Source of the DNA: Trichodelitschia bisporula
Lineage: Eukaryota
DNA length: 64,000 nucleotides
Direction of reading: 5' to 3'
NCBI GenBank assembly: GCA_010356995.1
Contig: ML996690.1
Coordinates: 1,458,217-1,522,216, forward strand
Of this stretch, positions 14,121 to 56,070 are shown one piece after another. The notes below the pieces were generated by a model. The model saw nothing but the letters and a program-made list of their open reading frames with translations. It searched no databases and was not told the origin of the DNA. Position 1 is the first letter of the stretch. Each line of letters opens with the position of its first letter. The translations under genes were made by a program, and so were the position numbers.

Positions 14121-16155
14121 ATGGCTCAATCAACTCCCAAGCGCCCTATCCGTATCGCTGGCTGCAGCGGCGGTAGGCCTCCTTACCTTCCCACGCTCAC
14201 GGTCATTCTAACTTTCCAGGCATCTATGACCGCAAGCGTGCGCTCTCCTCGCTTGCGGCTTACAGCCCGAAGGTCGATGTCATCGTCGGCGACTGGATGA
14301 GCGAATGCAACATGACATACCGGGGCAGCGACGCACGCGACCGGGCATTGGCGTCCAACACGTCAACATCGGGGAGCGCAATTGCAGGCGGTTACGAGCC
14401 CTATTTCCTCGAGCAGCTTGAGCCGGCACTTGACGACTTGGCCAAAAATGGCGTCAAGCTCGCTGTCAACGCCGGTGCGAGCGATGTCGCGGGCCTGGCA
14501 GCTGCGGTGAGGAAGATGGTCGCGGAGCGGGGACTCAAGCTTAAGGTCGGGTACGTGGATGGCGATGATGTCACTGAAGAGGTACTTCGGCGCTACCGTG
14601 AGGGCGAGGAGTTTTTGAGCTTGCCCTCGAATAAGAGCATCCGTGACTGGGGGTATGAGCCCCTGTGTGCACAGTGCTATCTCGGCGGCACAGGGATTGC
14701 GATGGCATTCGCGGCAGGCGCGGACATCGTTGTTGCGGGTCGCGTGGCCGATGCGAGTCCCACACTCGGTGCCGCGATGTGGTGGCACGGCTGGGGCCGC
14801 GAGGAGTTCGGGCCGCTGGCCGGAGCGTTGATGATTGGACACTTGCTGGAGTGCAGCACCTACGCAGTAAGTCGCTCATTCCCTCAGTTGACTGAAGGCT
14901 AACACCGCAGACTGGTGGCTACTACTCTGGGTTCAAAGACCTGGCGCCGAACGACACAGATCTGGGCTACCCGATCGCCGACGTAGACGCGGCTGGCGAA
15001 GCACTCATCACCATGGAGACGGGTCGGCACGGGCTTGTGACGGTTGATACCGTGGCCAGCCAGCTGCTGTACGAGATCCAGGGCCCGCTGTATTTCAACA
15101 GTGACGTCACGGCGCGCATTGACGGTGTGGTATTGAAGCAAGTAGACGAGAATGCCGTGCATTTCAGCGGAGTGGTGGGGCTACCGCCGCCTAGCACAAC
15201 AAAGGGTACGTTATTCTTCTTCTGCGCAGAGAAAGTGACGAAGGCTGACGAAACAGTCGGCATCACGGCCAAGGGCGGCTACCAGGCCGAATTCCACTTC
15301 TACCTCACGGGCCTGGACATCGCGGAGAAGGCGGCACAAATTGAGCGGCAAGTCAAGGCTCTCATGGGAGAGCACCTCTCCAAGTTCACGTGCCTCAAAT
15401 TCCAAGTCGCGGGCACCGCCGCCGCAGACCCGCAATCGCAAGACGAGGCGACGGTGGACCTGCGTATCTTCGCACAGACGCGCGACCCGGACATCCTCTC
15501 GGCCGGTGCCCTCGTCGACTCGGACCGTGGCTCCTTCGCGCGCTTCTGCATCCAAAATCTCCTCCAGGGCTACCCCGGCAGCACCATGGCCACCGACATG
15601 CGCAACGCCGTCGGCAAGCTCTTCTTTGAGTACTGGGTTGCCCTGCTGCCGCAGGATGCCGTCACCGAGATGGTCCACTTCCCCGACGGCTCCAGTCAAC
15701 GCGTGCCCGCGCCCACCAAAATGACCACATACCCCCGCGAGCAGGACTCCTACGAGCCGGCCTCCCCGGCGGATTTGTCCTCATTCGGACCGACGAAGCG
15801 CGCGCCACTCGGATATGTCGTGCTGGGCCGGTCAGGCGACAAGAGCAGCAACGCGAACCTGGGGCTGTTCGTGCGGGGAGACGAGGAATGGGCGTGGCTG
15901 CGCTCGTTTTTGACGACCTCGAAACTGAGGGAGCTCCTGGCTAAGGACGATGAGGGGCGCCAGATTGATCGCACGGAGTTTCCGGGAATCAAGGCGGTGC
16001 ATTTCCTGCTCAAGGACCACTTGGATCGTGGGTACAACTCTACCAGTGGGTTTGATGCGCTGGGCAAGAATCTCTGCGAGTATATCCGCGCGCGCTATGT
16101 GGATGTGCCAGTGCGGTTTTTGGAGAGGAGCACGCTCTGGAAGCGCGAGGCGTAG
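14121..16155 (+). CDS. DUF1446 / AtuA-like (acyclic terpene utilisation family) protein
   Basis: RPIRIAGCSG, GDWMSECNM, GADIVVAGRVADASP, SQLLYEIQGPLY, GRSGDKSSNANLG, DALGKNLCEYIR; several short GT-AG introns. Confidence 0.9.
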
Positions 16156-16944
16156 TGTCTCATGGGGCTGGAGAGCGGGGAATGGCGAAGTTTGCGCATA
16201 GAGTACTATAGTGAAACAAACAGAGCTATTACCAGGAGTTCTCCCCAAATGAACCTTCCCCTGTGCATCCTACCACCCCAGTAGGAAACCTGCAGCCCAA
16301 ATTAACGTTGCCATTTTACAAAGCGGGCCGGTTCCGGGACAGGCAACGCATGCACGGGCATCTCGCCTGTGGTTACCCGTGTGAACCCGGGCCGACTGTT
16401 GCGTCTTTCGTCAGAAAGATCAGAGATGGCAGAGGATAGACTCGCTTTCTTCTTTCCCGATATCGGTTGCGCGTGTGAGATTGTGCGGGATGGCGTCAGG
16501 GTTGCTGACCATCTGGTGAGATTTAAGGCCCACTGTCAGGGCGGAGACTAGATCAGCAAGAGCTGGTTGCGAGACTGGCTCGCCTTTGGACTTGACCAGC
16601 AAACTCCCCGGGAACCTTCATGCGCTGTGTTACTACGGGGCGTGTCATCGCACTGGGTCTATGCGAGCAGGAGGCAGGTTGTGAAGTACCGGACAATGAG
16701 CGCCCTGAATGTGAATTGCAGCATTCGCTTTCATTCTCTGAGTTGAGGGTGTTTGCGTCATGGGCCGGAAATCCTTACAGGACCTGCTTGGTCGTTCCGT
16801 TTATTCTTGGAAGGCCTCGGCGCAGCAATGCAGCCAGATGTTCAGCTCAAATTCAGCGTACATTCTGTATCATCTACACATTCGTTCTATCGACATCTCA
16901 CATGAGCCCCCTTATTGCAAGCCAAGTGTGTTGGCGATAAACCC

Positions 16945-18912
16945 TCAACCTGCTGCGAGGTCAATATGTACTCCCTTGACTTTTTCAGCCACTGCCGCAG
17001 CCGGATCATCGCCAGCTTGTGGCTGAACATGTGTCTGGTCCTGAAGATGTGCTGCCTCTGCTCGATTAATGCAGGAGATGTTTGCCCGGAGCTTGTTCAT
17101 CGTTTCCATGCTTTGACCGGTATTAGCGAAGGCATTGAGCAAGCACGACTGAACCTACTACTCGTCATACTCGACGCTGTCAAACACGATGCCCCCTCCC
17201 GCCTGTAGGTAGGCAACTCCATCTTTGACTAACATGGTGCGCAGGGCAATGCAACTGGTATCACTCAGTCAGTGACAAGTAAGCGGGGCGTAGGTACACA
17301 CGTGTCCATGGCTCCCTCCTCCACGGTGCCTGCCGATACAGTGTTGTACCCGAAGTAGCCAACAGCACCGGCATAGACGCCTCGCTTTTCCTTCTCCAGT
17401 TCGGCAATGAGCTCCATGGCCCGTACTTTGGGCGCACCGCTCACGGTTCCTGCGGGGAAGATGGATCTAGAGGTCCGTTAGCTGCAGGGTGACCTCGCCG
17501 ACCATTACAAGGCCCCACCGGAATGCATCAAATCGCGTCTTGCCGGGTCGGAGCACCCCAGATACTTCTGATGTCAAGTGCTGGACATGACTGAATTTCT
17601 GGACGATCATCAAGCGGTCGACACGCGTTGTCAGCGGATCGCACACCCGATTGACGTCGTTTCGGGCGAGGTCAACCAGCATGACATGTTCAGCCCTGCT
17701 TCATTCAGCGCTAAGGCGCCACTGTGTTGCTCAATATACCTGTCCTTTAGCGAACTTCTCAGCTCCTCTGCCAGCGCCTCGTCTTCTGCGACGGTCTTGC
17801 CCCGCACAACCGTGCCCGCAATCGGGTGTGTAATGATGCGTCCGCCTTCAGCCTTGACCAGGAGTTCGGGACTTGCACCCACAATCTGAAAATCCTCACA
17901 ATCGACAAAGAAGAGATAAGGAGATGGGTTTACTGTCCGCAGGGTCCGGTATATGTTGAAGGGATGCAGGGAAGTTGGCCGCGCTATCCGCTGTGAGGGT
18001 ACAGCCTGAATAATGTCGCCCTTATTGATATGCTCCTTAAGTCTCGTTACATGCGCCTCATATCCCTCCTGTCCAACATTGGAGGTGTATGTCTGATCTT
18101 GCTTGATGGGGCCCTGTGGAGGCAGTGGGACGTCCTTGCTTTCGAGTATGGATACCATGCGCTGAAGTGTGGCACGCCCATCCTCGTAAGCCTTTTCCAA
18201 GTCATCGAGGTGGTCTGGCACAGTGAGGTAGGTGAAGATCTTGACAACTTGGAAAAAGTGGTCAACAGCTACCACGGTGTCAAAGAGCATGAAGAGGCTT
18301 TCGGGGACACCCAGTACATCCTTCATGTCCCGCTTGGTTCGTGGCTCAAAGTACCGCACACAGTCATATCCCACGTAGCCGATCGCACCGCCTATCCAGG
18401 GAGGTACAACCAGACCAGGAATTTTTGCGACTCGGTACTGCGACAGCTCGGCATCGAGAACGGGCAGCGGATCCTGTTCTCCAATTCCATGGCCAGGTCC
18501 GGATTTGAGTACCTTCCGAGGGTCTTGGGAAATTAGCTGGTGCGCACAACATGGCAGGCGGACGCACCAGCTCCAATGAAGCTGTAGCGTCCAATTGTTT
18601 CGGTAGTTGCTGCACTTTCAAACAGAAAGGAGAGTTTTGAGTTGGAACTATGTTCTCAGTCTTCCACTCCGCATTACTATCTAGGTGACTTACTGACTTT
18701 GCAGCAACTTTCAGGTATATAGCGCTTGGTGTAAGGAACTCGGCGGAAAGCGAGGCGCAAATAGGCACGAGATTGGGGGGATTCGGCGCGGAAATGTCAG
18801 CAGCGAGCGTTTCGCGGATTGTCTCCAGCGGCGGCTGGATGGGCAGCTAAGAGATGTGAGCATTGCTAATACACTGCAACATTCTGGGCAATCTACGAAC
18901 CGGTGAAGCCAT
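16945..18912 (-). CDS. TRP2: Anthranilate synthase component I
   Basis: [63 protein letters not shown] motifs spread over multiple exons. Confidence 0.96.
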
Positions 18913-23250: not shown

Positions 23251-23640
23251 CACAGCGGTGAGGCATGCAGAGGACAGTTTGTGGGACTGAGTAAATGGAT
23301 GCGGATGATTCGATTAGGCCTGAACCAAGGCAGAAATACGAGATACTAGGACTTGTGAAAGTGGTAAGCTTCGCGAAATCATTGCCAGCATGCTACAGTG
23401 CACGCAAATGCTTCACCGCATTCCTCGAACTCAAAAATCAGACGCTAAGCACCATGGCTGGGCGAAATCTTGGCGGCCGCCGGCACCTCGACTAAAAAAA
23501 TGTTTGCCCCACACGAGCTGAGCGGCTGGCTTGGGTGACCCCAGTCACCGCAACAGCTCCCTGACATCATATCATCATACGCGTCTTCAAGGTCCTCAGC
23601 TCCACCGTCTTGATTAAGCTGAAGCTAATACTTGTAGCAG

Positions 23641-24786
23641 ATGTACAGAAATACCGTCGCTCGCTGCCCCACCCCCGAAAATGACGCCGCTTCTAGCGGA
23701 AAGCACAAAAGCGCTGCTCAAAAACAAGGTGCCATCGCTGCAATCCAATTCAAGCGCGCTACCGGTGAACCTTTCATTAAAAGCGACATCTACCGATACT
23801 TTCGACTAAATCGAACCACTGGAGAGCGAATTCTACGCAAATTTGAACAACAAGAAAGCGCAAACCAGCTCCACGATCAGTCAACTCCAGAGCGTGATCC
23901 TAGGGGACGCAAACCCAAGCTTACCAAAGCAGACATAGCTCGGATGGAGGCCGTTCTTGAGCACAGCTTTGGAGAGGAACGTCTGACTTGGGAAAATCTT
24001 GGTGCTGCTGCTGGAATCAATGATGTTTCGAGCCGTACGATCAGGAACCATATGGAAGATCTTGATTACCTCAAGTGCATTGCCTGTTCAAAGACTTGGG
24101 TGTCGCATCGAATACGTCAATTGAGAGTCGATTTCGCCAGAACCATGCTCTTTTTACGTCCTAGGCCAAGCGATTGGCACTTTGTGCTCTTTTCAGACGA
24201 GGTGCATTTTGCACTTGGACCACAACGAAAACTGCGTATCATTCCCAGGCCTGGAGAACGGGAATGCGCCGATTGCACTCAAGATTTCAGCGAGCTGAAG
24301 AAGGGCGAAAAGAGGCTCCACGCATGGGTCATCATTGGAATTGATTTCAAACACATGGTGTTCTACGATGCCCCCCGGAATTCGAATGGCAAGATGACTC
24401 AGAAGGTCTATATGCAGCACTTCTTACCGGTGGCAGAAGAGGCCATACAGAAGCTTCGAAGTGAAAGAGGATATAACTATGTACTTGAAGAAGATGGCGA
24501 TGCAAGCCATGTTGGCCATGCATCGACAAAATGGAAGGAGACTCATGGGCTTCAGACGTACAGCAACCCGCTGAAGTCGCCAGATCTGGCGCCTATAGAG
24601 CACTGCTTTCAGCCTATGAGGCATTATTTCAGTTCACGGCCACAGTCGAACCACGACATGTGTAAGACGACCATTTGGGAGGCTTTTCAAAGCGTCAACT
24701 TCGCGTTAATCAATCGATGGATTGAGAGCATGCCGGCAAGGCTCCAAGAAGTTGTAGACAGACAAGGCAACATAACGGGTGGTTAG
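23641..24786 (+). mobile_element. Tc1/mariner-family transposase (DD34E), intact ORF
   Basis: VLFSDEVHF, VLEEDGDASH and SPDLAPIE catalytic motifs with 34 residues between the second D and the E; N-terminal HTH-like region and RGRKPKLT linker; no convincing TIRs found by eye. Confidence 0.9.
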
Positions 24787-27848: not shown

Positions 27849-28052
27849 GATGGGTAGTGGACGAAAGAATGGAGTTGAGGTTCAATACGGATGTACGGAT
27901 GTATATCTTTACTATCGCTTTGCTAGTAAATGCGTGCGGTGATGCATGCCCGTGCTAGCTGAGTGTTGGATAGCGTGACGTAACTCTCCAAGGCACAGTA
28001 CGGCACTGTGCGAAGTGCTCAAAATTACTCCGTAGACAGGACTAAAGAGTAT

Positions 28053-28062
28053 CCGATGTCGG
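28053..28062. promoter_or_regulatory. Putative Leu3/LeuB binding site CCG-N4-CGG upstream of LEU4
   Basis: CCGATGTCGG matches the CCGN4CGG consensus, about 530 bp upstream of the isopropylmalate synthase ATG. Confidence 0.45.
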
Positions 28063-28587
28063 AGAGGGAGCCCGGAAGGCTGAATTTGTTCACCAGTCAT
28101 TAATCGCGGTGGGTGACGCACAGCAAGCGCCCCAAAGGAGTATCCTTGCTACATTTCCCCATGTCACGCAACTCAAGGTGAAGCAAAGAAAAAAAAGGCG
28201 GGGAAGAGGCTTTCGGTCGCCTTCACGTTTTCTCATGCTTCATCGATTTGCGGGGCTGTAGCCAATAATTGCCCGTTTGGCCTTTGCCGCCCCATGTGGG
28301 GCACGGGTTCTGTGACTCTTTTTTTTCTCCCCCCCAAAAACCACCGCACTCCCCGCCCCTCCAACCCCACCAAAGTCCAACCTGTACCAGTCACTCTCTA
28401 CTGTAGTCTTTACTCAGACTCCTCCTCTCGACTCCTCCTCTAGACTCCTCACGCTCCCCATCCCCCGCCCCAAGTTACCCGCTCATCCCAATTTCCCATC
28501 CCTCTCTAACGCATCAGCTTCGAATTGAAATCCCCCCTCTGAAAGCAAGACTGCCTCCAAGGCCCTAATATCAAATCCACCTTCGCC

Positions 28588-30579
28588 ATGCCCATGCTCA
28601 AGGATCCGTCTAAGAAATACCGGGCCTTCAAGCCTCTACAGCTTCCCAACCGGCAATGGCCCTCGCGGACCATCGACAAGCCGCCGCGGTGGCTGTCGAC
28701 GGATTTGCGTGACGGAAACCAGAGCCTCGTGGATCCCATGGTACGCAGCTGTCTGGGCATGTCGCCGGTGGCAAGGCTGTCTCCAACTCTTCTCGCAGGC
28801 TGACTATCTGCTTGCAGGACGGCGACCAAAAGTTCACCTACTTCCAAATGCTCGTCAAGCTCGGCTACAAGGAGATTGAAGTCTCATTCCCCTCCGCCTC
28901 ACAAACGGACTTCGACTTCACACGGCGCTTGGTGGAGACGCCGGGTATTGTGCCAGACGATGTGTGGTTGCAAGTCTTGTCGCCGTGCCGCAAGGAGCTA
29001 ATTGCACGCACCGTCGAGTCGCTCCGTGGCGCAAAGAAGGCCCTGCTTCACCTGTATCTCGCTACCAGCGCGTGCTTCCAGCAGGTGGTCTTCGGAATGA
29101 CGAACGAAGAGCAGATCGCGCTGGCCATTGAGTGCACGAAGTACGCCCGGTCCTTGACCAAGGACGACCCCAACCAGGCCGGTACCGAATGGGCCTACGA
29201 GTTTTCGCCCGAGACCTTCTCCGACTCCGACCCCGATTTCGTCCTACAAGTCTGCGAAGCCGTCAAGGCGGCGTGGGAGCCAACAGTCGAGAACCCCATC
29301 ATCTTCAACCTGCCAGCGACCGTCGAGATGAGCACCCCCAACGTGTACGCCGACCAGATCGAATACTTTTGCCGCAGCATCTCGGAGCGCGAAAAGATCT
29401 GCGTCTCGCTCCACCCGCACAATGATCGCGGCTGTGCCGTTGCGGCCGCTGAGCTCGCGCAGATGGCGGGCGCCGACCGGGTCGAGGGCACCCTCTTTGG
29501 CAACGGCGAGCGCACCGGCAATGTGGACCTGGTGACATTGGCGCTCAACCTGTACACTCAGGGAGTGCACCCCGGTATCGACTTCTCAGACATCAAGAGC
29601 GTCATTGATGTCGTCGAAAAGAGCAACAAAATTCCGGTGCACGCGCGTGCGCCGTACGGCGGCCAGCTCGTTGTATGCGCCTTCAGTGGCTCGCATCAGG
29701 ATGCAATCAAGAAGGGCTTCCAGATGCGGGCGCAGCAGGGCGCGACCAACGATTCGCCCTGGCGCGTGCCCTACCTGCCACTTGATCCCGCCGACATCGG
29801 CCGTACCTACGAGGCCATCATCCGGGTTAACTCCCAGAGCGGCAAGGGCGGCGTGGCGTGGATCATCCACCGCAATCTGGAGCTCGACCTTCCGCGCGGA
29901 TTGCAGGTGGCCTTCTCGAAGATCGTGCAAAAGGAAGCGGACGCCGTTGGCCGCGAGCTGTTGCCAAACGAGATCGTCAAGCTCTTCGCCGACGCCTATC
30001 ACCTGAAGCAGAACCAACGCTTCGAACTCGTCGACTACGACATCACTGCTGACAGGTCCGTTTCGCCCGCGCCGCCCGAGCCGGGCAAGACGCCATCGTC
30101 GCGCAACCTGAAGCGCATGTTCAAGGGCATCATCGCCATTGACGGTCAAGAGCACTCGATTCGCGGTGTAGGTAACGGCGCCATCTCGTCGCTCGCGAAT
30201 GCGCTCAAGACCCTTGGCATCGATCTCGACGTTGCTGACTATAAGGAGCATGCTATTGGTGAGGGACGTGACGTCAAGGCGGCCACATTCATCGAGTGCA
30301 CGGCAGCCAACTCGAGCCAGAAGGTGTGGGGTGTGGGTATCCATGAGGACGTGGTACAGGCTTCACTTATCGCGCTTCTCAGCGCGGCCAGCTCGGTATG
30401 TTCATTTTTTGCCCTTTATTCTCGTCAGGTACTGATCATTATATAAGTTCCTCTCCAGTCGTCCCAGTACACCCATTCCTTTCCGCCCCAAGCGGTCTAA
30501 CACGGCGACGCTCCCGACGCCGGAGCTGTCGCCCTTGAGACAAGTAGTAGCCCGGTTGGAAGACGAAGCAGCGAAGTAG
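28588..30579 (+). CDS. LEU4: 2-isopropylmalate synthase
   Basis: [51 protein letters not shown]; introns 28741-28817 and 30397-30447. Confidence 0.97.
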
Positions 30580-30584
30580 TAGCG

Positions 30585-30629
30585 TTGTAGAAAAGCAAAT
30601 GGAATGTTTTCTCACAGCCTACGTGAGAT
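30585..30629 (+). repeat. Left copy of ~45-bp direct repeat (partner 33352-33396)
   Basis: TTGTAGAAA-AGCAAATGGAATGTTTTCTCACAGCCTACGTGAGAT versus TTGTAGAAACAGCAAATATCATGTTTATC-GTAGCCTACGTGAGAT; last 14 nt identical. Confidence 0.85.
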
Positions 30630-30630
30630 C

Positions 30631-30762
30631 AGCCGCGCTCATCAAGCCACACGTCAAGACGCTCTTCAAGTCGTCCTTGGAGCCGTCCATCAGGCCGTTC
30701 CTTCAAGCCGCTTATCGAGCAGCTCATCAAGCCGTTCGTCAAGCCGCGCTCATTAAGCCGCA
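30631..30762 (+). repeat. Array of degenerate ~12-bp (C)RTCAAGCCG motifs
   Basis: About 10 imperfect copies (atcaagcca, gtcaagacg, ttcaagtcg, ttcaagccg, atcaagccg, gtcaagccg, attaagccg); inverted copies (CGGCTTGACG-like) at 33225-33267 and 33339-33350. Confidence 0.75.
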
Positions 30763-31145
30763 CCCAGTATAATTATATTCGACGGGTCGGCTTATTCGAA
30801 AGATTCACAGAAGAAAGCCTGTAAATACGACATATTAGCCAAAAGCTCATAGCAGCTTAGCAGCTTAGCGCGGATAGTCGCGACTTCCAACCATGACGGT
30901 CGCGACTTCTAGAACTACTGCGGGTACGTAACCTTCACCAATGCACCACGCAACCCGCAACCTGCTTACGTACCTGCACCACGTTTTTACCATGCCTTCC
31001 TCTTTCTCGAACCTCGCCTTTCTGTGCCGTGGCACAAAAGTAGCTTCCACAAGTCATAAAACTCGATCGAAACCTACTGTCCCCCTCTCACCTCTCCATC
31101 CAACAGACGTCACCAACGGAACTACTACATACCAGTTCTGAGCCC

Positions 31146-33200
31146 ATGGCTTCTCCAGATAATCAAGTCACCCGCTCGGAGAAAGCTCTCAATCCAGAAA
31201 ACACACCTGCTAAGCCAAACGAAAAGGTTTCTTCTCGCTTCAGGACGACCGTCAGGAAAGACATGGATGACACGACGTTCCGTGAGCACCCGCACAAGCT
31301 CTGCAACTATCTGCTTCCGTTCGCATATTTTGTAGCGTAGTGGGAGAAACCGAGCACACTGAGCAGCAAACACGGCTGCGAGGCCGGTGTAATGATCGGT
31401 ATCTTCGAGAAAGAACCGTCAGCTCTGGCAAGCAACCCGGAAAGCGTGAATACTCACCGTCGTCAAGATGAAAGTCTTCCGTATGGCCACACCTTCTTGC
31501 AAGGCGTGCTTGTACGAAGTTCACCTTGCTCGAGAAAAAACTTGCCTGAGGGGCAGCTACAGAATTTGTGCGTGCAGCGGCCAAGTCCCAGCGTCATGTC
31601 CGAGGGACACCGGCCAGCGGCAAGACCACGCTCTCCCTGTTAATGCACCGAAATTTTTTCCAGAGCAACCAGCGGGTGGTCTTCATCCACAAATGGGACA
31701 CCGAAGTTTCTGCGTGGAATCATTTCGTTCGGTGCTGCCATGAGCAAGGATATACTGACATCGGCACCTGCAACATCAGAGAGGCCGACATTGCCTACCT
31801 CATCGATGACGCTCAGCTCACTTATGGCTCTGCTGACCTCTGGTATGGGCCGATCAAGACGCAAACCGCCTCGTATGTCGGCCCGCGGATCTGCCTCTTC
31901 TCGTCGTATGGAAGCCCTGTACAGGGTATTCCGTCGTGCGGGAATTGGACTCCAGCAACCCTTGCGCCCTGGAATCGTGTCTCCCTGTTGATTAAGGACG
32001 ACCCGTGTGCTCCGAAGGCAGCCTTGTTCTATAACAGGGCCGAGTTCGATGAAGTCGTTGACCGCTTCTGCTCCACCCCGCAGCGAGACTTCTCACTCGA
32101 CCCTAAGGCACGTAACGAAGTTTTTGAGTTGACGAACGGGCACCCCGGAGCGGTAAGCTCTATTCTAAGTTACATCTTCGAAGTAAGATCTTCTATTGAA
32201 CCCTTCACGAACGTCGGACTATCTGCTAACTAATCAAGCGCCTCAAACCGAGATTTCCTCTCCAGTCATCTTCAGTCGACTTTGATACTGCTTTCGGACT
32301 AATCAGCGATCACGAACGGATGCTTGCTTCCTTGGCTCGGTACCCTGTTGGGCAGTCTCTGCCTTACGCCGACCGTCACGAACGCGTTCAGGAACCACCA
32401 GTGGCAGATGTACTGCTGTCGGTTTTGTACAATGGGAGCGTGAAACAGACTGATGCTGAGCCGATACAGTACTGCTTCAGGCAGGGCTGGATCCAGGTGG
32501 AAGAGGTCAACAGAATGTCGGATTGCGTTTTTCCCTTAAAGCTGCATGCCTGGTAGATAATTCCGTCCCCAGCTTTTCAGAAACTAATCGATGTAGTTTT
32601 GTTCAACATGCCATCGCCAGCATCCTGAAGTTTTCTACGTTTCCGGATAGTCTGTACCCGAACGTCAAGGCGATTATACCTGTCATTGTCAAGAATATGT
32701 CAAGCGGGGTTCTCAGTGCTTGAACAAAAGGATTAAACGTCGGCATAGCCGTGGGTCGGTCGCTCCCCGAGGACGCGCTCAAGGTCGAGTTCATTCGAGC
32801 ATTCTGGAAGTTACGTTTGACTGCGCTCGTGGCCGAGTACGCCAACCGGTCCATCGGCCCGGGGTGCATCGACGTCTTCTTGCCGGCGCTCGGCTGGGCG
32901 GTTGAATTTCTTCGGGAAGGAGACCGCCTAACTTAGCACCTTGATCGCTTTCAACCGGGGGGGATGCATTACCCCTTTCTCCAGTCGGGTGTGATCAAAG
33001 ACTACATTGTTCTTGACTGTCGCTACACGCCTGGCCGCATCTGTAAGGATCGAGTTGAGCGGAATGTGTACATCTGCTGATATTTCTCAGGTTTGGACCA
33101 ACACCTGTGGAAGCTTGTCTTTGCGAGAGACTTTTCGAAAGTCCAAATCCTCGACGCGAGCTGCCAGCAGGTGGATTACTTTCAGTTGCTCTATGATTAA
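31146..33200 (+). pseudogene. P-loop NTPase + C-terminal PD-(D/E)xK-like nuclease (Crinkler/RHS-type NTPase-REase architecture), disrupted
   Basis: Walker A HVRGTPASGKTT, Walker B-like YLIDDAQLTY, LFSSYGSP, LTNGHPG; C-terminal PEDALKVEFIRA...GCIDVFLPALGWAVEFLREGDRL; in-frame TAG at 32934-36 and an apparent frameshift before Walker A; contains introns. 5' boundary uncertain. Confidence 0.7.
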
Positions 33201-33351
33201 TGAGGGCACGACGGATGCCGCAACCGCGGCTTGACGGTGGCGCTTGACGATGGCACTTGACGATGGCGTTATGGGTTACCCCGTTACGGTAGAGCTAGAG
33301 AGAATGCGATAATGATAGGGAACAAGCTCAGCCCGGAAGGGCTTGACGCCA

Positions 33352-33396
33352 TTGTAGAAACAGCAAATATCATGTTTATCGTAGCCTACGTGAGAT
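33352..33396 (+). repeat. Right copy of ~45-bp direct repeat (partner 30585-30629)
   Basis: See the left copy; about 80% identity by manual alignment. Confidence 0.85.
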
Positions 33397-33810
33397 TGGA
33401 CATTACCTTTGGGTGTTGGTAGATGAGAACATGACAATTGAAAAGTCGTGGCAGACTCTACTGCCCAGAAGCGGCAAAGACAAGGTCTCATGACTTTCCA
33501 GCCCCGCCCTGAAATCACGTGCGAAATGTTCGTACGTCACCACAGCGCCGATCGGCACTCGGGCCATCTCGTCGTGCGGGCGGCGAGAGTCAAAACGGAC
33601 AAAGTCAATTTTCATATCCCATCTCCGTCCAACGTCCTCTCTACTTCAACTCATCACCACAACCACTCTGTCACCTGCTATCAGTCTCTGTTTGCGACCA
33701 CCAACAACATCTGCAACCTGCAAACCTAGCTCTCGCAATCCCTCCGCTCAACCCCCACTCACCTCTACCCCACTCTTCAATTTCGCATATCGCCACCCGA
33801 ACTCGCAACC

Positions 33811-34496
33811 ATGTTCTCCCGCCTCATCACCCGCGTGCCCGCCATGGCCGCCCGCACCTCCACTGCCGTCAGCACTGTGCGTCCTGCTATCGCTGCACCT
33901 CGCACAGCAGCCGTGCGGCAGACACGGAGCTACCACGAGAAAGATAAGTAGCCCGAAGCCGGCCGAAGCCGGGCCGGTGACAACACCGCTAACACGTAGC
34001 ACTGCTCGATCACTACGAGCGTCCGCGTAACGTGGGATCTATGTCGCAGAAGGACACTGACGTCGGCACGGGGCTCGTCGGCGCCCCGGCATGCGGCGAC
34101 GTGATGAAGCTGCAGATCCGGGTCGACCCGGCGAGCAACACCATCAGCGATGTCAAGTTCAAGACGTTTGGGTGCGGTAGCGCAATCGCTAGCTCGAGCT
34201 ACCTGACCGAGCTGGTGCGGGGCATGAAGCTGGACGATGCGGCCAAGATCAAGAACAACGATATTGCGCGCGAATTGTGCCTGCCGCCTGTTAAGCGTGA
34301 GTTGTCATTGAGGGAGGGTTTTCTGTACGTGTTGCTGACCTGCGCAGTTCACTGCTCCATGCTCGCCGAGGATGCCATCAAGTCGGCCATCAACAACTAC
34401 TACACCAAGAACCCGCAAGCACGCAAGACCGATCTCGGCGGTACTAATGCCCCGCTCCCCAAGGTCGAAATTGAAACCGCGTCGGCGGCTGCCTAG
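33811..34496 (+). CDS. ISU1: Mitochondrial Fe-S scaffold Isu1/IscU
   Basis: Presequence MFSRLITR..., YHEK/VLDHYERPRNVG, GAPACGDVMKLQI, FKTFGCGSAIAS, LPPVK/LHC; introns 33944-34002 (AT-AC) and 34297-34347. Confidence 0.97.
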
Positions 34497-35381
34497 ATTG
34501 CTACATCAAGGAAACGTTACGCAAGTGGGCGAAGATTGTATGTAAAATCGGTGGAGAGTGGCACTCTCGTATCATCTCTGGCGTTGGCGTCGTGCTGCGG
34601 GTGGGCTTTTTTTGCGGCTCCTTTGGTGGCGGGAGGAGGCTCGACAGGCTTTTAGCGGGCTACCTATGTTTACGGTAACATGCGCTTTTCGAGGTGGCTC
34701 GGATGTTTCAATATCAATTGCCTTGCCTTGCGGCACGTTTGAAAGAAGTTCGGACTGAGCTGAAGTGTACATACTTACCTCTACCAACTTCGAGTCGCTT
34801 GTTGCGTGCAGTACGGGTAGCCAAATGTGTAGGCGTGCGAGCTATCTGCTCAAGCCGGATATATTGAATGACACGTACATTCGTACTGGCCCTGGCGATG
34901 CAAATCTGGATGGAAGGTGAACGTGAGAGGCAAGGCCAGGTGTGCGACGGCTTCAATACCGTCCCACCGGCTGGGTCGCCCGACATCACGCCACCCTTTT
35001 CATCCTTGACGCTGCGATTCATGGGTTGCGTGCAAATAATTTGTTCCGACCTGGAGGTATTCCATTAACATGCAAGCGAAACGGTTTGTTCACCTATGTG
35101 CCATGGTATCCCTTACGCAGACTAATAATGCGAATACTCATGGCTCATTCTATCCATTTTGCCATTTGGCTTGGCTATTTGTGCTGCAACGGCTGGCGAG
35201 GCCCTCCATGTTCACGACGCACTACATCTGCAGTGCAAGCTGTCACTGGGCAATTCACGCACTAGGATTTCACGACACCAAGTTCATCATCGCAGGCCAT
35301 TTCGTGCATTCCTTGGTACTAAGCTCTATGATCTATACCGAACGCATCCAACAAAGGCCACACATAGCCAAAGCAACCAGC

Positions 35382-37063
35382 TCACTGGAGCAGATGGTCC
35401 TGACATCATTAGCAACACTCTCAAGCAAAATAACAGTTGTACTTACCCGGTAGTGCTTTTGCGAATTGCCCTTCAAGTCCGTTCGCCACTGTTGCTTCGC
35501 CTGCGCACGATCCTGTTGCTTCTTCGACCGCTTCTCCACGGCACGAACCTCGCGCTTCTTCGCCTCGCTAACCGATACCATGCCCAGACCGCCTTCGGCA
35601 CGGCTAACGAGTTGTCGGCCGCGATCGTGCCCGCGCGGCGCTGGTTCCTCGTCGCTCTCTTCGTCACCTTCGGTCAGAGCAAGCTGGGCGCGCTCATCGG
35701 GCGTCGGATAATTGTGCAGGTTCTGGCGGAAGTAGCGGTTTAGGCTGCGGTGGCCAGCGACGCGACCCGTCGGGAGATGCAGCTCAAACTCGTCATGGTA
35801 CACGGCATGAGGTGTGGGATGTGCGTGGCTGTGGTACCCGTCGACGCTCTGGTGGCGGCGATGTTGACCGTGGGAGTGGTGGGGGTGCGTCTTGAGCCGA
35901 TCGCGAAGGCGCTCACGGTCCCCATCGCAATAGACTGGCCCCAGTTCTTCGGTTGGCACGTCAGAAACGGTGCTTGATGTTTCCCAGCCGGCGTCCTCGC
36001 CCTCCTGACCGCTCGACCCATCTTCGACCTTTGGCACCCGCTTCGCCCCCAGCTTGGCGCCCACACTCGGGGCTTCGTCCTCATCCTCCTCTGTCTCATA
36101 ATCGTCGTCTGAGTACGTACTCCGGAAGTCGTAATACTCTCCAATCTCCAACTGCTCCTTCTGACTGTCGAAGGCAATCTTGCAATGGCTGAGGTCCCGC
36201 ATATGCGTTTTAATCCCGCTCTCCGACCACTTCAACCGGTTGCAGTAAAGACATTGGTACTCCTCGTTGACCTTGCTGCTGAGATATGTGATCAAACCCT
36301 CGGCATCAACGAGAAACTCGCGCTCCGGGATGAACATGCCGTGAACCTTCTGCATGTGGTCGAGGTTCTCCGCCAGTGAAGGCGATGAGACAGTGCAGAA
36401 TAAGCACTCGAGAAGCGGATCGCGCATGACCGGAGGGGTCTGCGCCGTCTCAGTAGAAGCGCGCGATAAAGGATGTGGGGCCCGGTCGTCCGCAGCAGAA
36501 TGGTGAGGCCGAGTGGGACGCCGTGACACCGGCTCGGGCGCATTCTCCAGCGTCGTATCCTTGAGATTCTTTGCAATCTGCGAAAACTCCTCTTCCTCTT
36601 CTTCCCCAATCGTGGCCCCCACCGGTGTTTTGTCCAAGGGCTCCCCAAGAGAGAAAGTCGAGCTTATGACGGAAGTGGCATCGTTGTCTTTCCGGGCCTT
36701 CTCTCCAGTGCGCATAACATTCAACCGGTGCTTCTGGCTAGCTTGGTGGTTGATGTATGTGTTTTCGCTGTAAAACTTCTTCTGACAGGCGTCACACGTT
36801 TTTTCATATGCGGCGCGCACGGCAGTGGCGGCTGCGTTTGCTTTGCTCGCAAGGACCTTATCGGCAAAAACCTCAGATGAAAGGGGGGGAAGGGATGCAA
36901 CACGGCGCTTCAAATTATACCGGCTGGGCAGAATGAGTATTTGCTCCGAGTGTCAAACGGTGACTTACTGCCAATCACTCTGCATGTGCGTGCGCTGCAG
37001 CTCGCTAGACCGGAACGCAACCTGGCAGGTGTTGCAGGTGAAGGGATGAGCGTCGGGAGCCAT
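35382..37063 (-). CDS. REI1: Pre-60S zinc-finger factor Rei1/Reh1 (ZNF622)
   Basis: FTCNTCQVAFRSSELQRTHMQSDW/HRYNLKRRVASLPP, CLFC, HGMFIPE, LHLPTGRVAGHRSL, C-terminal QKHYR/DHLLQ; two introns. Confidence 0.94.
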
Positions 37064-51010: not shown

Positions 51011-51644
51011 GAGCGCTTGGGGGCCGACTGGTATTTAGCCTGGTCTGGCCCTACTGAGTTTGATTTTCTCCTCAACCCGCACTCCACACTCCAAGGTTGG
51101 TTTTTGTTCGTTGTAGGGTGTTGCATACGCTAACGAGCTCAGATGAACGCGACAATGGATTCTCACTCCCCCACCCACAGCCAGTCCGCATCGTAAGTCC
51201 CCACAATTCTCCCAACCACCGAAGAAGATTATTTTATTTCTTCGTTGTGGGATGTTACGTTGACGATTGCGGTAGAACCCGGAAACCGCCGTGGTGCTCT
51301 ACGGAGGCCCGAAGGGGGTTGGCAATAGTCCCGTAACTGGGGCCAATGCCACCCCACTCGGGTCTCCGGACTCGGACCAGGCCCGCCAGCGTGCCCGGGC
51401 CCGTCGGGCCTGTCGGGCCAACCCGCCGCACACACCCCGCCCGCGCGACCTACCCCGCCCGGGGAACCCGCCCTCCCCGTACTACCCGCCGCACCCGGCC
51501 CGGTTGTGCTACCCGCCGCAGTCGCGCGACATAGAGAGCGCTTGGGCGCCGGCTGGTATTTAGCCCGGTCAGGCCCCATAGACGTTTGATTTTCTCCTCA
51601 AACCACACTCCTCACACTACCGTTGGTTTTTGTTCGTTGTAGGG
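51011..51644 (+). repeat. ~108-bp imperfect direct repeat (51011-51118 and 51536-51644)
   Basis: GAGCGCTTGGG..CTGGTATTTAGCC..GTTTGATTTTCTCCTCAA..GTTGGTTTTTGTTCGTTGTAGGG is present twice. Confidence 0.9.
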
Positions 51645-52147: not shown

Positions 52148-53113
52148 ATGACCCTCTCTTCCGCGCGCCACATCCTTCTCATCCTGTCCGGCAAAGGCGG
52201 CGTCGGCAAATCCTCCGTGACAACGCAGCTGGCACTCACCCTCAGCGCGCAAGGCCACGCCGTAGGCGTCCTCGACCTCGATCTCACAGGCCCGAACATC
52301 CCGCGCTTCTTCGGCATCGAGGACGCGCGCGTCACACAGGCTCCCGGCGGGCTTGTGCCCGTCACAGTTCACGAAGGCTCCACTGCGGAAGATGGCGGAC
52401 AGTCGCGCGGCCCGCTGTACTGCATGTCCCTCGGCTTCATCCTCGCGACGCGCAGCACAGCGGTCATATGGCGCGGCCCCAAGAAAACGGCCATGGTGCG
52501 CCAGTTCCTGCTGCAGACGCTGTGGCCGCCACTCGACTACCTGCTCATCGACACGCCGCCGGGGACGTCGGACGAGCACATTTCGCTCGTGGAGACGCTG
52601 CTGCTGAACATGCCTGCTGCGACGGGGACGGGGACGGGGACGCCAAGTATTGCGTCTGCGGTGCTGGTTACTACGCCGCAGGCGGTTTCGACGGCGGATG
52701 TGCGCAAGGAACTTAATTTTTGCCGGAAGACGGGCCTAGTGGTGCGCGGGGTGGTGGAGAATATGGCGGGGTTTGTGTGTCCGCATTGCATGGAGTGTAC
52801 GAATGTGTTTTCTAAGGGGGGGGGGCAGGTTATGGCGCAGGAGTTTGGGGTACCTTTCCTTGGGAGTGTGCCGCTCGATCCTGCGTGGGTTAGGCTCGTT
52901 GAGGAGGGGAAGACGCCGGTATATCCCAAGGGGACGGTTGTTGCGGGCGTGGATGTAGGGCAGGAGGGCGGGACTGCAGTGGAGCCGGAGGCGGAGGCGC
53001 AGACCGAGAGTAAAGATCCTGGGCTGCTGGTGGAGAAGTACACTCATTGCTCGCTGTTTCCGCTCTTTGACGGAATAGCGAAGACGGTCAGCTCGGCCAT
53101 GGAGGCTGAGTGA
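52148..53113 (+). CDS. CFD1: Cytosolic Fe-S assembly P-loop NTPase Cfd1
   Basis: [11 protein letters not shown] deviant Walker [38 protein letters not shown]; lacks the N-terminal Cys ferredoxin motif. Confidence 0.95.
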
Positions 53114-54981: not shown

Positions 54982-56070
54982 ATGTCCACCTCCACCTCCA
55001 CCCTCATAGCTTCAACCCAGTCCGAACCTCTCCAAGCTGTCCTCCGCGCCCCCCTCCAAGCCGCACCCGAACTCGTCGCCCCCGAGCCCGAACACTGTCC
55101 CGGCCCTGAGTCCGAACAAGCAGGCAAAGGCGATGCCTGTGATGGCTGTCCAAATCAGCAAATCTGCGCATCTGCGCCCAAGGGCCCTGATCCGGATATC
55201 CCTATCATAACCGAGCGCCTCGCTGGCGTGCGACATAAACTCCTGGTGCTGAGTGGCAAGGGTGGCGTCGGGAAGAGCACATTCAGCGCACTGCTGGCCC
55301 AGGCCTTTTCGTCACCCCCTCGGGCGGCAAATGGGGAGCAGCCATCTGCCTCGGCACCGGCGCCCACAGTTGGTCTCATGGACACGGACCTCTGCGGGCC
55401 CAGCATCCCGCGCATGGTACTCGGACCGGACGCAGCGAAGACCTCCATCCACACCACAGCCTCAGGATGGAGCCCAGTATGGGCATCCGACACGCTCGCC
55501 CTGATGAGCATCCAATTCATGCTGCCAGACCAGGACGCAGCCGTCATCTGGCGCGGGCCGAAGAAAAACGGGTTGATCAAGCGCTTCCTCAAGGACGTCG
55601 AATGGGGCGACCTGGACCTGCTGGTCGTGGACACGCCGCCCGGCACCAGCGACGAGCACCTGAGCGTCAACTCCTTCCTGACCGCCAGCGGCGTCGACGG
55701 CGCTGTCCTCGTCACCACGCCGCAGGAGGTGGCGCTGCTGGACGTGCGCCGCGAACTCGACTTTTGCCGCAAGGCGGGCATCCGCGTGCTCGGCGTTGTC
55801 GAGAACATGGCGGGTTTTGTGTGTCCCAATTGCCGCGGCGAGAGCGAAATCTTTCGCGCGTCGACGGGTGGAGCGAAGCGCTTCTGCGAAGTCGAGAATG
55901 TGCCTTTCCTCGGTTCGGTGCCGCTCGATCCGCGCATTGGAATGGCGTGCGATTTTGGCGAGAGCTTCCTCGATGCCTTTCCGGAGAGTCCGGCCGCGCA
56001 GAGGGTCGAAGATGTGGTGAGGCAGCTGAGGGAGACTATCGGTCTTGAGGCACGGGTTGCGAATCCGTGA
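54982..56070 (+). CDS. NBP35: Cytosolic Fe-S assembly P-loop NTPase Nbp35
   Basis: N-terminal CPGPES...[11 protein letters not shown] ferredoxin-like motif, [24 protein letters not shown]. Confidence 0.96.

What the first reader, a model, noticed from the sequence alone, without database searches (positions are those of the whole stretch)
30585..33396. Candidate new mobile-element type: NTPase + REase cassette with ~45-bp target duplication and inverted subterminal motif arrays
Seen: the 45 bp starting 6 nt after the LEU4 stop (30585-30629) recur at 33352-33396 with about 80% identity and the last 14 nt identical. The 2.7 kb between them opens with about 10 copies of a TCAAGCCG-type motif and closes with the same motif inverted (CGCGGCTTGACG 33225-36 mirrors CGTCAAGCCGCG 30737-48, plus two more copies and GGGCTTGACG at the right junction). 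The only gene inside is a P-loop NTPase + PD-(D/E)xK-like nuclease, with no DDE transposase, RT or tyrosine recombinase. Established: Crinkler/RHS-type NTPase+REase proteins have been proposed to derive from mobile elements. Inference: this is a decayed copy of a self-mobile element whose nuclease makes widely staggered cuts, which would give an unusually long TSD.
Basis: partly seen in the sequence, partly recalled or inferred. Interest (0 to 1): 0.82.

Follow-up and report, generated by a model that had tools for sequence, protein, structure and literature searches.

The report
Dead nuclease gene with insertion scars
A 2.8-kb piece of DNA carrying a now-broken ATPase-plus-nuclease gene seems to have been inserted once between two housekeeping genes of a dung fungus, leaving a 45-base duplication and mirror-image motif clusters at its ends, but nothing shows that it could move itself.

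Summary
The 45-bp direct repeat (30585-30629 / 33352-33396) is real: 38 of 46 columns match, the last 14 nt are identical, and 0 of 200 shuffles reach its score. A TCAAGC-type motif is clustered only at the two inner ends of the 2.7-kb segment, in opposite orientation. No such cluster occurs elsewhere in the 64-kb window or in 358 kb of homologous loci.

The cargo belongs to the known fungal Crinkler-type nSTAND3 P-loop NTPase + REase-fold family, with at most 50% identity to other members. The window matches Trichodelitschia bisporula gene model EJ06DRAFT_324449. The gene is transcribed and has three spliced introns. It is dead because of two in-frame stops and an inverted 5' segment.

The self-mobile, new-transposon reading is not supported:
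- No other contig of the source genome shares the repeat or the ends.
- None of 30 homologous loci has a comparable flanking repeat.
- Only 1 of 26 loci shows inverted motif clusters, which is the background level.
- No transposase, RT or recombinase lies in the segment.

Best reading: the scar of one old insertion of a transposon-like cassette, mover unknown. No close relative's genome was available, so the empty-site test remains open.

The parts
30577..30582 (+). End of the LEU4-type 2-isopropylmalate synthase gene: tandem TAG TAG stops
   Evidence: Translation ...LEDEAAK**. Pfam HMGL-like, IPMS_D2 and LeuA_dimer on 28818-30392. RNA contigs show spliced introns 28740-28816 and 30395-30446.
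30585..30629 (+). Left copy of the 45-bp direct repeat (putative target duplication)
   Evidence: (D5).
30630..30765 (+). Left subterminal array: about 11 units of 12 bp, core TCAAGCCG, starting at the first base after the repeat
   Evidence: TRF period 12. Families D1 and D4. Eight copies within 1 mismatch. It is the only + strand cluster of the hexamer in the window.
30766..31142 (.). Unassigned spacer with no family homology at significant level; possibly the old 5' flank of the gene
   Evidence: No HMM hit. Only scattered weak tblastn hits, the best being P0106 at 31032-30931 on the - strand (E 2.8e-4; 31032-30934, E 0.001).
31143..31597 (-). Inverted N-terminal fragment of a family gene: Cys-rich motif, the conserved stretch before the P-loop (C.R...V..L...L....VIHV) and a degenerate P-loop, with two frame changes
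   Evidence: Of 120 tblastn HSPs (E up to 0.05) from 309 family proteins, 107 fall on the - strand between about 31100 and 31350 and 7 more at 31400-31499. P0234 gives three colinear HSPs in frames -1, -2 and -3. BLASTP against P0017 residues 117-175 gives E 5e-5. The family HMM gives E 0.01.
31595..33200 (+). Main gene from the P-loop to its natural stop (TAA 33198-33200): nSTAND3-type NTPase + REase-fold domain. Exons are 31595-32182, 32239-32551, 32596-33042 and 33091-33200. No start codon or N-terminus is left in this orientation
   Evidence: HMM pieces cover profile positions 98-584. Three GT..AG introns appear only in the RNA contigs. The spliced frame has 485 codons with two internal stops. 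It corresponds to the annotated model P0064 / KAF2403252.1.
32721..32723 (+). In-frame TGA; the annotated gene model ends here
32934..32936 (+). In-frame TAG inside the REase core, just after ...EFLREGDRLT
32763..33038 (+). REase-fold core: helix with E58, strands carrying D92 (IDVF) and E103..R106 (VEFLR), then the last strand (YIVLDC). Residue numbers are those of P0208
   Evidence: AlphaFold2 model of P0208 has mean pLDDT 83.6. The VIA-align top rows are almost all REase-fold nucleases at Z 5.0-6.2.
33225..33268 (-). Right subterminal array: CGCGGCTTGACG followed by three 13-bp units GCTTGACGATGGC, which is the motif in inverted orientation
   Evidence: (D3, I3).
33338..33347 (-). Last inverted motif copy, GGGCTTGACG, ending 4 nt before the right repeat
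   Evidence: (D2).
33352..33396 (+). Right copy of the 45-bp direct repeat
34032..34295 (+). ISU1-type Fe-S scaffold gene (NifU_N), the downstream neighbour
   Evidence: Pfam E 9.5e-33. Spliced RNA contigs.

Best explanation
The 2.77 kb between the repeats is the scar of one old insertion into the short spacer between LEU4 and ISU1, 5 nt past LEU4's first stop codon.

What came in was a transposon-like cassette. Its two ends carry clusters of the same 6-8-nt motif (TCAAGC[C/G]) in opposite orientation, like the subterminal protein-binding repeats of some DNA transposons. Its cargo was a gene of the fungal Crinkler-type family, with an nSTAND3 P-loop NTPase and a restriction-endonuclease-fold domain. 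Repair of a break with about 45-nt staggered ends duplicated the target.

The gene was kept for some time: its three introns and its reading frame are intact. It then died when its first 340-450 nt were inverted (or duplicated in inverted orientation), which removed the start. It also carries two nonsense codons. It is still transcribed and spliced.

Shown: the repeat, the motif clusters, the family, the fold, the introns and the lesions. Inferred: that the repeat is a target duplication, that the motif clusters are element ends, and the order of events. What catalysed the insertion is unknown. I rate an enzyme acting in trans, or break repair, as more likely than the cargo's own nuclease.
For: - The repeat bounds the segment exactly. 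It is highly non-random and unique in the window.
- In the source genome's DNA run, all 8 contigs of X1 that could be laid are listed. None from another locus touches 30585-31948 or 32791-33396.
- The motif clusters start at the first base after the left repeat and end 4 nt before the right one. They are the only two such clusters in 64 kb, and none is found in 358 kb of homologous loci.
- The flanks are housekeeping genes in a housekeeping region.
- GC3 of the cargo is 0.64, against 0.78-0.83 for three neighbouring genes.
- The nearest proteins reach at most 50% identity. The named ones are mostly Eurotiomycetes, and none in the lists is a Dothideomycete other than this gene's own model.
- A second, more decayed REase fragment of the family lies in another intergenic spacer of the window at 16306-16620. 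At least four further loci of the genome share short coding patches. Pieces of this family have therefore landed and decayed repeatedly in this genome.
- The introns and the frame are supported by RNA contigs.
Against: - This is a single instance. There is no second copy with the same ends, no exact terminal inverted repeat (the motif sits 12 nt from the left end and 4 nt from the right), and no known transposase in the segment.
- A 45-bp target duplication fits no DNA transposon superfamily I can recall.
- The two repeat copies differ at 8 of 46 columns, while the gene has only two nonsense codons. This needs a long period of selection on the gene after insertion.
- Homologous loci show neither feature.
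- No relative's genome could be read, so it is not shown that LEU4 and ISU1 were ever adjacent without the segment.
- The laying of contigs needs fairly long matches at 80% or more, so short degenerate arrays at other copies could have been missed.
Confidence: 0.45

Rival explanations
1. One reading: an autonomous mobile element of a new type. The NTPase + REase protein binds the inverted subterminal motif arrays, cuts the target with a stagger of about 45 nt and moves the cassette. This copy is a decayed one.
For: - The architecture is real and non-random: a direct repeat directly abutting inverted motif clusters, with a nuclease + NTPase as the only gene.
- The family leaves fragments at several loci of this genome.
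- A review reports that NTPase + REase pairs are linked with transposable elements in prokaryotes (PMC5289972, passages read).
- TnsA of Tn7 is among the structural matches, at Z 4.9, rank 19.
Against: - No other copy in the source genome shares the ends.
- Of 30 homologous loci, 27 have no flanking repeat above background. The remaining 3 are one sequence, and its left repeat copy lies in another gene.
- Inverted motif clusters are at background level, 1 of 26 loci.
- Most family members look like ordinary resident genes. Some carry a Crinkler N-terminal domain (6 of 30).
- No REase-fold protein is known to me to carry out complete transposition alone.
Confidence: 0.1
2. No insertion. The gene has long been resident between LEU4 and ISU1. 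The 45-mer is a small local duplication of a 3'-end or terminator element, and both copies lie downstream of a + strand stop codon. The arrays are independent minisatellite-like expansions.
For: - Both repeat copies follow a stop codon: 5 nt after LEU4's first stop and 151 nt after the cargo gene's stop.
- Homologues elsewhere are ordinary genes without such scars.
- RNA contigs run on from LEU4 into the segment and from the segment into ISU1.
Against: - It must treat as coincidence that the only two clusters of the motif in 64 kb + 358 kb sit at the two inner edges of the repeat, in opposite orientation.
- The 45-mer is not seen elsewhere in the window or in the source contigs.
- The cargo's GC3 is lower than its neighbours'.
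Confidence: 0.2
3. One-off capture of a stray DNA fragment during repair of a staggered or replication-associated break (filler DNA, microhomology-mediated replication). The fragment had no transposon properties.
For: It is a single copy, with no terminal inverted repeat and no transposase. Break-repair insertions can carry flanking duplications of tens of bases (recalled, not checked in any call).
Against: It does not explain the inverted motif clusters exactly at both ends.
Confidence: 0.15
4. Integration of a circular DNA by a single crossover. In the circle, the 45-mer would be an att-like site flanked on both sides by inverted motif arrays, which is the layout of recombinase-binding sites around a core. 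Crossover with a similar chromosomal 45-mer inside the identical 14-nt stretch would give two imperfect hybrid repeats.
For: - When the ends are joined, the arrays face each other across the 45-mer.
- Identity is perfect in the last 14 nt and the first 9 nt, and all 8 differences lie in between.
- The 3' half of each copy is palindromic: TCTCAC-N7-GTGAGA on the left and CGTAG-C-CTACG on the right (read).
Against: There is no recombinase gene in the segment, no second example, and no circular form seen. The lay-out of the differences is also what local alignment trimming tends to give.
Confidence: 0.08

Closest known systems
Crinkler/RHS-type (CR) effector toxin modules: P-loop NTPase + REase (Zhang et al. 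2016, known to me only through the review PMC5289972, passages; Pfam nSTAND3 PF20720 and Crinkler PF20147)
   Same: - Same domain pair in the same order.
- phmmer E down to 1e-47 against fungal proteins that carry PF20720 and, in some, PF20147.
- Invariant HVRGTPASGK Walker A.
- The C-terminal domain is modelled as a REase fold.
   Different: - No Crinkler N-terminal header here. The inverted N-terminal fragment is of the Cys-rich short type.
- The gene is dead.
- The host, by the name on the matching NCBI record, is Trichodelitschia bisporula (a dung saprobe as far as I recall), and nothing suggests secretion.
DNA transposons with subterminal repeat arrays (En/Spm-CACTA, Ac/Ds-hAT, Mutator 'Rehavkus', Foldback elements); features recalled, not checked in any call
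   Same: Short motifs are repeated near both ends in opposite orientation, directly inside a flanking duplication.
   Different: - There is no exact terminal inverted repeat.
- The duplication is 45 bp rather than 2-11 bp.
- There is no DDE transposase in the segment.
- There is only a single copy.
Site-specific non-LTR retrotransposons with a restriction-enzyme-like endonuclease (SLACS/CRE/R2 group). I recall a 49-bp target duplication for SLACS, but could not confirm it
   Same: A PD-(D/E)xK-type endonuclease is associated with an unusually long target duplication.
   Different: There is no reverse transcriptase and no poly(A) or 3' tail. The cargo keeps three introns, so it did not pass through a spliced RNA.
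Tn7 TnsA (REase fold) + TnsC (ATPase)
   Same: A REase-fold nuclease is paired with an NTPase in a mobile context. TnsA is a structural match (1t0f_A, Z 4.9, rmsd 3.3, 92 residues aligned).
   Different: There is no TnsB-type DDE transposase. The two activities are fused in one protein. Tn7's duplication is 5 bp (recalled). The match is no better than to many restriction enzymes.
Free-standing homing endonuclease genes inserted between conserved genes
   Same: A nuclease gene sits alone in a short spacer between two conserved housekeeping genes.
   Different: Homing leaves no target duplication and needs no terminal motif arrays. No empty allele is available for comparison.

Membership tests
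Fungal Crinkler-type nSTAND3 NTPase + REase family | Walker A GxxxxGK[ST] within the invariant HVRGTPASGK, and Walker B hhhhD[DE] | tested here: met
   HVRGTPASGKTT starts at 31595 and AYLIDDAQ follows.
Fungal Crinkler-type nSTAND3 NTPase + REase family | Significant sequence similarity along the whole protein to family members | tested here: met
   E 9.7e-47 to Rasamsonia T310_3333 and 63 long hits. 628 representatives at E up to 0.001. The family HMM matches five + strand pieces covering profile positions 98-584 of 590.
Fungal Crinkler-type nSTAND3 NTPase + REase family | Pfam nSTAND3 (PF20720) above the gathering score | tested here: inconclusive
   The window piece scores 11.5 bits against a cut-off of 27.2. 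Of 30 homologues, 25 match at E up to 0.01, but P0005 itself scores 26.4 against 27.2.
Fungal Crinkler-type nSTAND3 NTPase + REase family | C-terminal PD-(D/E)xK (REase) fold with conserved acidic residues | tested here: met
   The model has pLDDT 83.6 with helix-strand-strand-strand-helix-strand order. 15 chains reach Z >= 5 (best 6.2), and the top 50 rows are almost all REase-fold proteins (SwaI, BglII, BstYI, VRR_NUC, CidB/CinB). Foldseek gives nothing at E <= 0.001. E58, D92, E103 and R106 of P0208 fall on invariant or nearly invariant columns. The Z values are modest, so this supports the fold and not the activity.
Crinkler (CRN) effectors in the strict sense | N-terminal Crinkler header domain (PF20147) | tested here: not met
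   No hit in any frame piece. The N-terminal fragment aligns with the Cys-rich short N-termini. Only 6 of 30 homologues carry PF20147.
Class II (DNA) transposon | Several copies in a genome sharing the same termini | tested here: not met
   Source-genome DNA contigs (X1; 8 laid, all listed). Other loci match only 31949-32144, 32172-32321, 32343-32445 and 32630-32790. The limit is matches of about 30 nt or more at 80% or better.
Class II (DNA) transposon | Exact terminal inverted repeats at the edges of the target duplication | tested here: not met
   The ends share only the 7-nt core, at different distances from the edge (12 nt against 4 nt). Reverse-complemented left array against the right end scores 24, reached by 1 of 200 shuffles.
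Class II (DNA) transposon | A transposase of a known class (DDE, HUH, tyrosine or serine recombinase, Cas1) | tested here: not met
   None in the eight frame pieces of the gene scanned against Pfam or the four scanned against NCBIfam. The only transposase-like ORF of the window is a weak DDE_3 match at 23638-24783, 5.8 kb from the segment.
Class II (DNA) transposon | Target-site duplication of a family-typical length at independent insertions | not testable with these tools
   Only one insertion is at hand. The second relic at 16306-16620 has no flanking repeat above noise.
REL-endonuclease non-LTR retrotransposon | Reverse transcriptase ORF and an intron-less copy | tested here: not met
   No RT in the scanned pieces. 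Three spliced introns lie in the gene.
Homing endonuclease gene | Occupied and empty alleles, with cleavage of the empty site | not testable with these tools
   The four runs come from two samples of one coded organism, and none of them has a contig that joins across the segment.

The most novel reading that the evidence does not exclude
The segment is the first recognisable insertion scar of a eukaryotic mobile cassette that is moved by a fused NTPase + REase-fold nuclease alone. The protein would bind inverted TCAAGC(C/G) arrays at the element ends, and insertion would proceed through nicks about 45 nt apart (or through an att-like 45-mer). This would give a physical mechanism for the patchy, fragment-strewn distribution of Crinkler-type NTPase-REase genes in fungi.
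Probability: 0.1. Interest if true: 0.8.

Novelty: new member of a known kind. Interest (0 to 1): 0.38.

Why it matters
Crinkler-type NTPase + REase genes are scattered patchily through fungi and oomycetes. According to the review PMC5289972 (passages read), they have been proposed, on domain grounds only, to descend from transposon proteins. A eukaryotic copy with a clear insertion scar would be the first physical hint of how such genes spread.

As it stands, this locus gives one clean, statistically solid scar and a well-resolved dead gene, but no evidence of a family of moving copies. Its practical value has two parts. It defines a search pattern: an NTPase-REase gene, inverted short-motif arrays and a 30-50-bp flanking repeat. 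It also corrects the annotated gene model, which is a truncated pseudogene product lacking both the P-loop and the nuclease domain.

Tried and rejected
- **Whole genome.** None is held for this window, so I could not BLAST the assembly. The only look at the rest of the genome was through Logan contigs of the source runs.
- **Sequencing runs.** The look-up of sequencing runs listed no holder on record as RNA. Two runs marked as a guess at RNA carry GT..AG joints that are absent from the DNA runs. No contig in any of the four runs joins across the segment, but all four are one coded organism, so this says nothing about empty sites.
- **Earlier findings of the scan.** Nothing by sequence, place or words.
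- **Nucleotide similarity to homologous loci.** The segment's ends match none of the 80 metagenome loci. Only short coding matches were found.
- **A larger inverted duplication as the source of the inverted arrays.** The reverse complement of 30630-31230 against 32900-33352 scores 24, reached by 14 of 200 shuffles. The reverse complement of 31128-31418 against 31480-31760 is reached by 83 of 200. Neither is significant, so the idea is not supported at nucleotide level.
- **Second relic (15900-17500).** No flanking repeat and no similarity to the main segment above noise.
- **L030/L032/L033 repeat (63 nt, 75%).** The flanks share no translated similarity at E 1e-3. The left copy lies in the C-terminal coding part of an upstream kinase gene. 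I rejected it as a parallel case.
- **RIP as the cause of decay.** TpA/ApT is 0.81 and (CpA+TpG)/(ApC+GpT) is 1.08 in the segment, so there is no RIP signature.
- **Sequence search of solved structures.** The family profile found only weak P-loop matches. Foldseek against the PDB gave nothing at E <= 0.001.
- **Literature.**
  - Zhang et al. 2016 (DOI and PMC4857004) and Aksoy et al. 1990 (PMC330328) are not held.
  - The 49-bp SLACS duplication could not be confirmed from the papers searched.
  - A search for 'nSTAND3' gave 5 papers (4 listed), none about mobility (listing only).
  - Searches for Crinkler + REase + transposons + NTPase and for 'Transposons to toxins' gave no paper describing insertion scars of such genes, judged from titles and abstracts only.
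- **TRF on all loci at a low threshold.** Short tandem repeats are everywhere at that threshold, so the output was uninformative and part of it was cut.
- **Profile comparison.** The - strand fragment against A1 failed internally, so a pairwise BLASTP was used instead.
Full report
**Context**

The window is fungal. An NCBI protein, KAF2403252.1 (EJ06DRAFT_324449, Trichodelitschia bisporula, 316 aa, P0064), is 100% identical to the window's translation over its first 171 residues, and the rest of it also reads from the window's frames. The gene upstream of the finding is a LEU4-type 2-isopropylmalate synthase (HMGL-like, IPMS_D2, LeuA_dimer). It ends ...EDEAAK with TAG TAG at 30577-30582. The gene downstream is an ISU1-type NifU_N protein. 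The rest of the window is housekeeping genes. I scanned 43 of its 103 ORFs of 130 codons or more, chosen by eye, and the only transposase-like hit was a weak DDE_3 ORF at 23638-24783.

**The observation**

The direct repeat is real.
- 30585-30629 and 33352-33396 align over 46 columns with 38 matches and two single-base gaps. The first 9 and the last 14 bases are identical.
- It is the best self-match of the region (E 4.7e-6). It stays significant against the whole window (E 8.5e-5) and in the all-against-all comparison (E 0.002).
- 0 of 200 dinucleotide shuffles reach its score of 44; the null is 15.4 +/- 1.7.
- The similarity stops sharply at both edges.
- The 14-mer has no third copy in the window.

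The motif arrays are also real.
- The left one starts at the first base after the repeat. It has a 12-bp period, with eight copies within one mismatch of TCAAGCCG and about three weaker ones.
- The right end has three tandem 13-bp units and one more copy that ends 4 nt before the right repeat, all in the opposite orientation.
- The single 12-nt perfect inverted match is not significant by itself (E 1.3).
- The pattern as a whole is significant. A cluster of three or more TCAAGC in 140 nt occurs exactly once on each strand in 64 kb, at these two places. It does not occur at all in 357,609 bases of 80 loci that encode relatives.

**The cargo**

The + strand pieces carry GTPASGKTT and LIDDAQ.
- The 227-aa piece finds 63 longer proteins at E up to 0.001. 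The best is 45% identical, from Rasamsonia emersonii. Most named hits are from Aspergillus, Talaromyces and Penicillium, and many carry precomputed PF20720 (nSTAND3) and some PF20147 (Crinkler N-terminal).
- An exhaustive search finds 628 cluster representatives at E up to 0.001. Apart from the gene's own model, none is more than 50% identical.
- A profile built from the 50 hits of at least 500 aa matches five + strand pieces colinearly, over profile positions 98-584 of 590.
- Pfam on 30 homologues gives nSTAND3 in 25 and Crinkler in 6. The window piece itself stays below threshold.
- The C-terminal exon, read through its two stops with X, folds with mean pLDDT 83.6 into a helix, three strands, helices and a strand.
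- Aligned against 48,161 PDB representatives, 15 chains reach Z >= 5 (best 6.2), and nearly all of the top 50 are restriction-endonuclease-fold proteins: SwaI, BglII, BstYI, VRR_NUC, CidB/CinB, and TnsA at Z 4.9. Foldseek gives nothing at E <= 0.001. The Z values are modest and show a fold, not an activity.

**State of the gene**

I laid the contigs of four public runs on 28000-36000.
- The two runs guessed to be RNA carry GT..AG joints at the LEU4 introns, and the DNA runs lack them. I therefore treat these two runs as RNA.
- They also carry three joints inside the cargo gene: 32183-32238, 32552-32595 and 33043-33090. These move the frame 2 to 1 to 0, exactly as the frame pieces require.
- With these introns removed, the frame from the P-loop (31595) to the natural TAA (33198-33200) is 485 codons with only two internal stops, TGA 32721-23 and TAG 32934-36.
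- The annotated model P0064 starts after the P-loop and ends at the TGA. It is therefore a fragment without Walker A and without the nuclease domain.
- RNA contigs run without a break from LEU4 into the segment and from the segment into ISU1. Contigs cannot show transcript ends.

The third lesion is at the 5' end. No start codon or N-terminus lies upstream of the P-loop on the + strand. Instead, the - strand of 31143-31597 encodes the family's N-terminus.
- Of 120 tblastn HSPs (E up to 0.05) from 309 family proteins against 30560-31600, 107 fall on the - strand between about 31100 and 31350, and 7 more at 31400-31499.
- P0234 gives three colinear - strand HSPs in three frames: the Cys-rich motif, a CGH..H motif, and the ICPR...VVHV stretch.
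- BLASTP against P0017 gives E 5e-5.

The fragment abuts the + strand P-loop within about 10 nt. The simplest reading is that the first 340-450 nt of the gene were inverted, possibly with a short duplication. A remnant of a second, head-to-head paralogue is the alternative. The two copies of the P-loop region have no detectable nucleotide similarity.

**Is it a mobile element?**

For:
- The repeat and the inverted end clusters are what an inserted element with protein-binding ends would leave.
- The cargo has a lower GC3 than its neighbours, 0.64 against 0.78-0.83.
- Its nearest relatives are distant, and the named ones are mostly from another class of fungi.
- A second, much more decayed REase fragment of the family lies in another spacer of the same window (16306-16548, E 1.8e-8, continuing after a stop with WLRDWL).
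- The source genome's DNA contigs hold at least four other loci that match short coding patches: 31949-32144 nearly identical, 32172-32321, 32343-32445 and 32630-32790 at roughly 84-90%.

Against:
- All 8 contigs that could be laid from DNA run X1 are listed. None from another locus touches the repeat, the arrays, the first 1.3 kb or the last 0.6 kb of the segment.
- The scan of metagenome contigs returned 80 family loci. I entered 55 of them, leaving out 25 short ones by eye, and 30 had at least 500 bp on both sides.
- Flanking direct matches of 35 bits or more occur in 3 of those 30 loci, inverted ones in 0 of 30, and reversed-sequence controls in 0 of 30.
- The 3 positive loci are one sequence sampled three times. 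Its left repeat copy lies in the coding end of an upstream Crinkler-N + kinase gene.
- After dropping four near-identical loci, inverted shared 6-mer clusters occur in 1 of 26 loci. Direct-orientation shared clusters, the control, also occur in 1 of 26. The window scores positive in the same test.
- No exact terminal inverted repeat exists, and no transposase, RT or recombinase family was found in the gene's frame pieces that were scanned.
- The introns exclude a retrocopy.

**Limits**

- The homologous loci are distant, at most 48% identical in the NTPase piece.
- The contig laying cannot see short degenerate arrays.
- No genome of a relative could be read, so neither the empty-site test nor the test for other copies with different repeats was possible.

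**Verdict**

The sequence features are confirmed and are not chance. The best reading (0.45) is the scar of one old insertion of a transposon-like cassette carrying a Crinkler-type NTPase-REase gene, with the mover unknown. The gene was later killed by a 5' inversion and two nonsense codons but is still transcribed and spliced.

| Rival reading | Confidence |
|---|---|
| Self-mobile element of a new type | 0.10 |
| No insertion; a duplicated 3'-end element plus independent minisatellites | 0.20 |
| One-off capture of stray DNA during break repair | 0.15 |
| Integration of a circular DNA at an att-like 45-mer | 0.08 |

The gene family is known (Pfam families; the review PMC5289972, passages read). 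The primary paper, Zhang et al. 2016, was not available to me, so the statement that such modules derive from transposons rests on the review's wording.

Noticed in passing
window 16306-16620 (+): A second relic of the same family: only the REase core (RLAFFFPDIGCACEIVRDGVRVADHLVRF, a stop, then ..WLRDWLAF) survives. It lies in the spacer between an AtuA-family gene and an anthranilate-synthase gene. It has no flanking repeat or motif array above noise.
   Followed up: partly
window 31949-32144, 32172-32321, 32343-32445, 32630-32790: Contigs from other loci of the source genome match only these short coding patches, then run on unlike the window on both sides. The first patch is nearly identical; the others differ at roughly 10-16% of positions. 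No annotated protein matches them. They are probably further unannotated fragments of the family, or gene-conversion patches. Variants of most of the patches also stand in the RNA contigs.
   Followed up: partly
window 30608-30629 and 33375-33396: The 3' half of each repeat copy is palindromic, but in a different register. The left copy reads TCTCAC-N7-GTGAGA and the right copy reads CGTAG-C-CTACG. The three substitutions between the copies switch one dyad for the other.
   Followed up: no
window 23638-24783 (+): A 382-codon open frame with a weak DDE_3 (Tc1/mariner-type transposase) match, E 9.8e-6 and below Pfam's cut-off. It is the only transposase-like ORF seen among the 43 window ORFs scanned, and lies 5.8 kb upstream of the segment.
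   Followed up: no
window 33943-34003: The RNA contigs skip 59 nt in the 5' part of the ISU1 gene, and the skipped piece is reported to have AT..AC ends rather than GT..AG. This may be an alignment offset or an unusual intron.
   Followed up: no
window 30636-30772, - strand: Read on the - strand, the 12-bp unit of the left array encodes an (R/K)LDE-like 4-residue repeat. All three + frames are also open across the array. A few weak tblastn hits align it to the family's helix before the P-loop (ARLAARLDEK..). This is probably an artefact of the repeat.
   Followed up: no
L030 1102-6714: A soil-metagenome fungal contig carries two tandem Crinkler-N genes: one with a kinase domain (1102-3363) and one with the NTPase + REase module (about 4412-6714). 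A 63-nt, 75% direct repeat lies at 3214-3275 and 7278-7340.
   Followed up: partly
window 51011-51118 / 51536-51644, 52658-52789 / 55702-55833, and 56.3-58.7 kb: Other repeats in the window: a 109-nt pair at 86% identity; two paralogous NUBPL/ParA-type P-loop genes; and a large WD40-repeat gene with internal repeats of about 65-70% identity. A 42-nt pair at 86% identity lies at 1909-1950 / 6878-6919.
   Followed up: no
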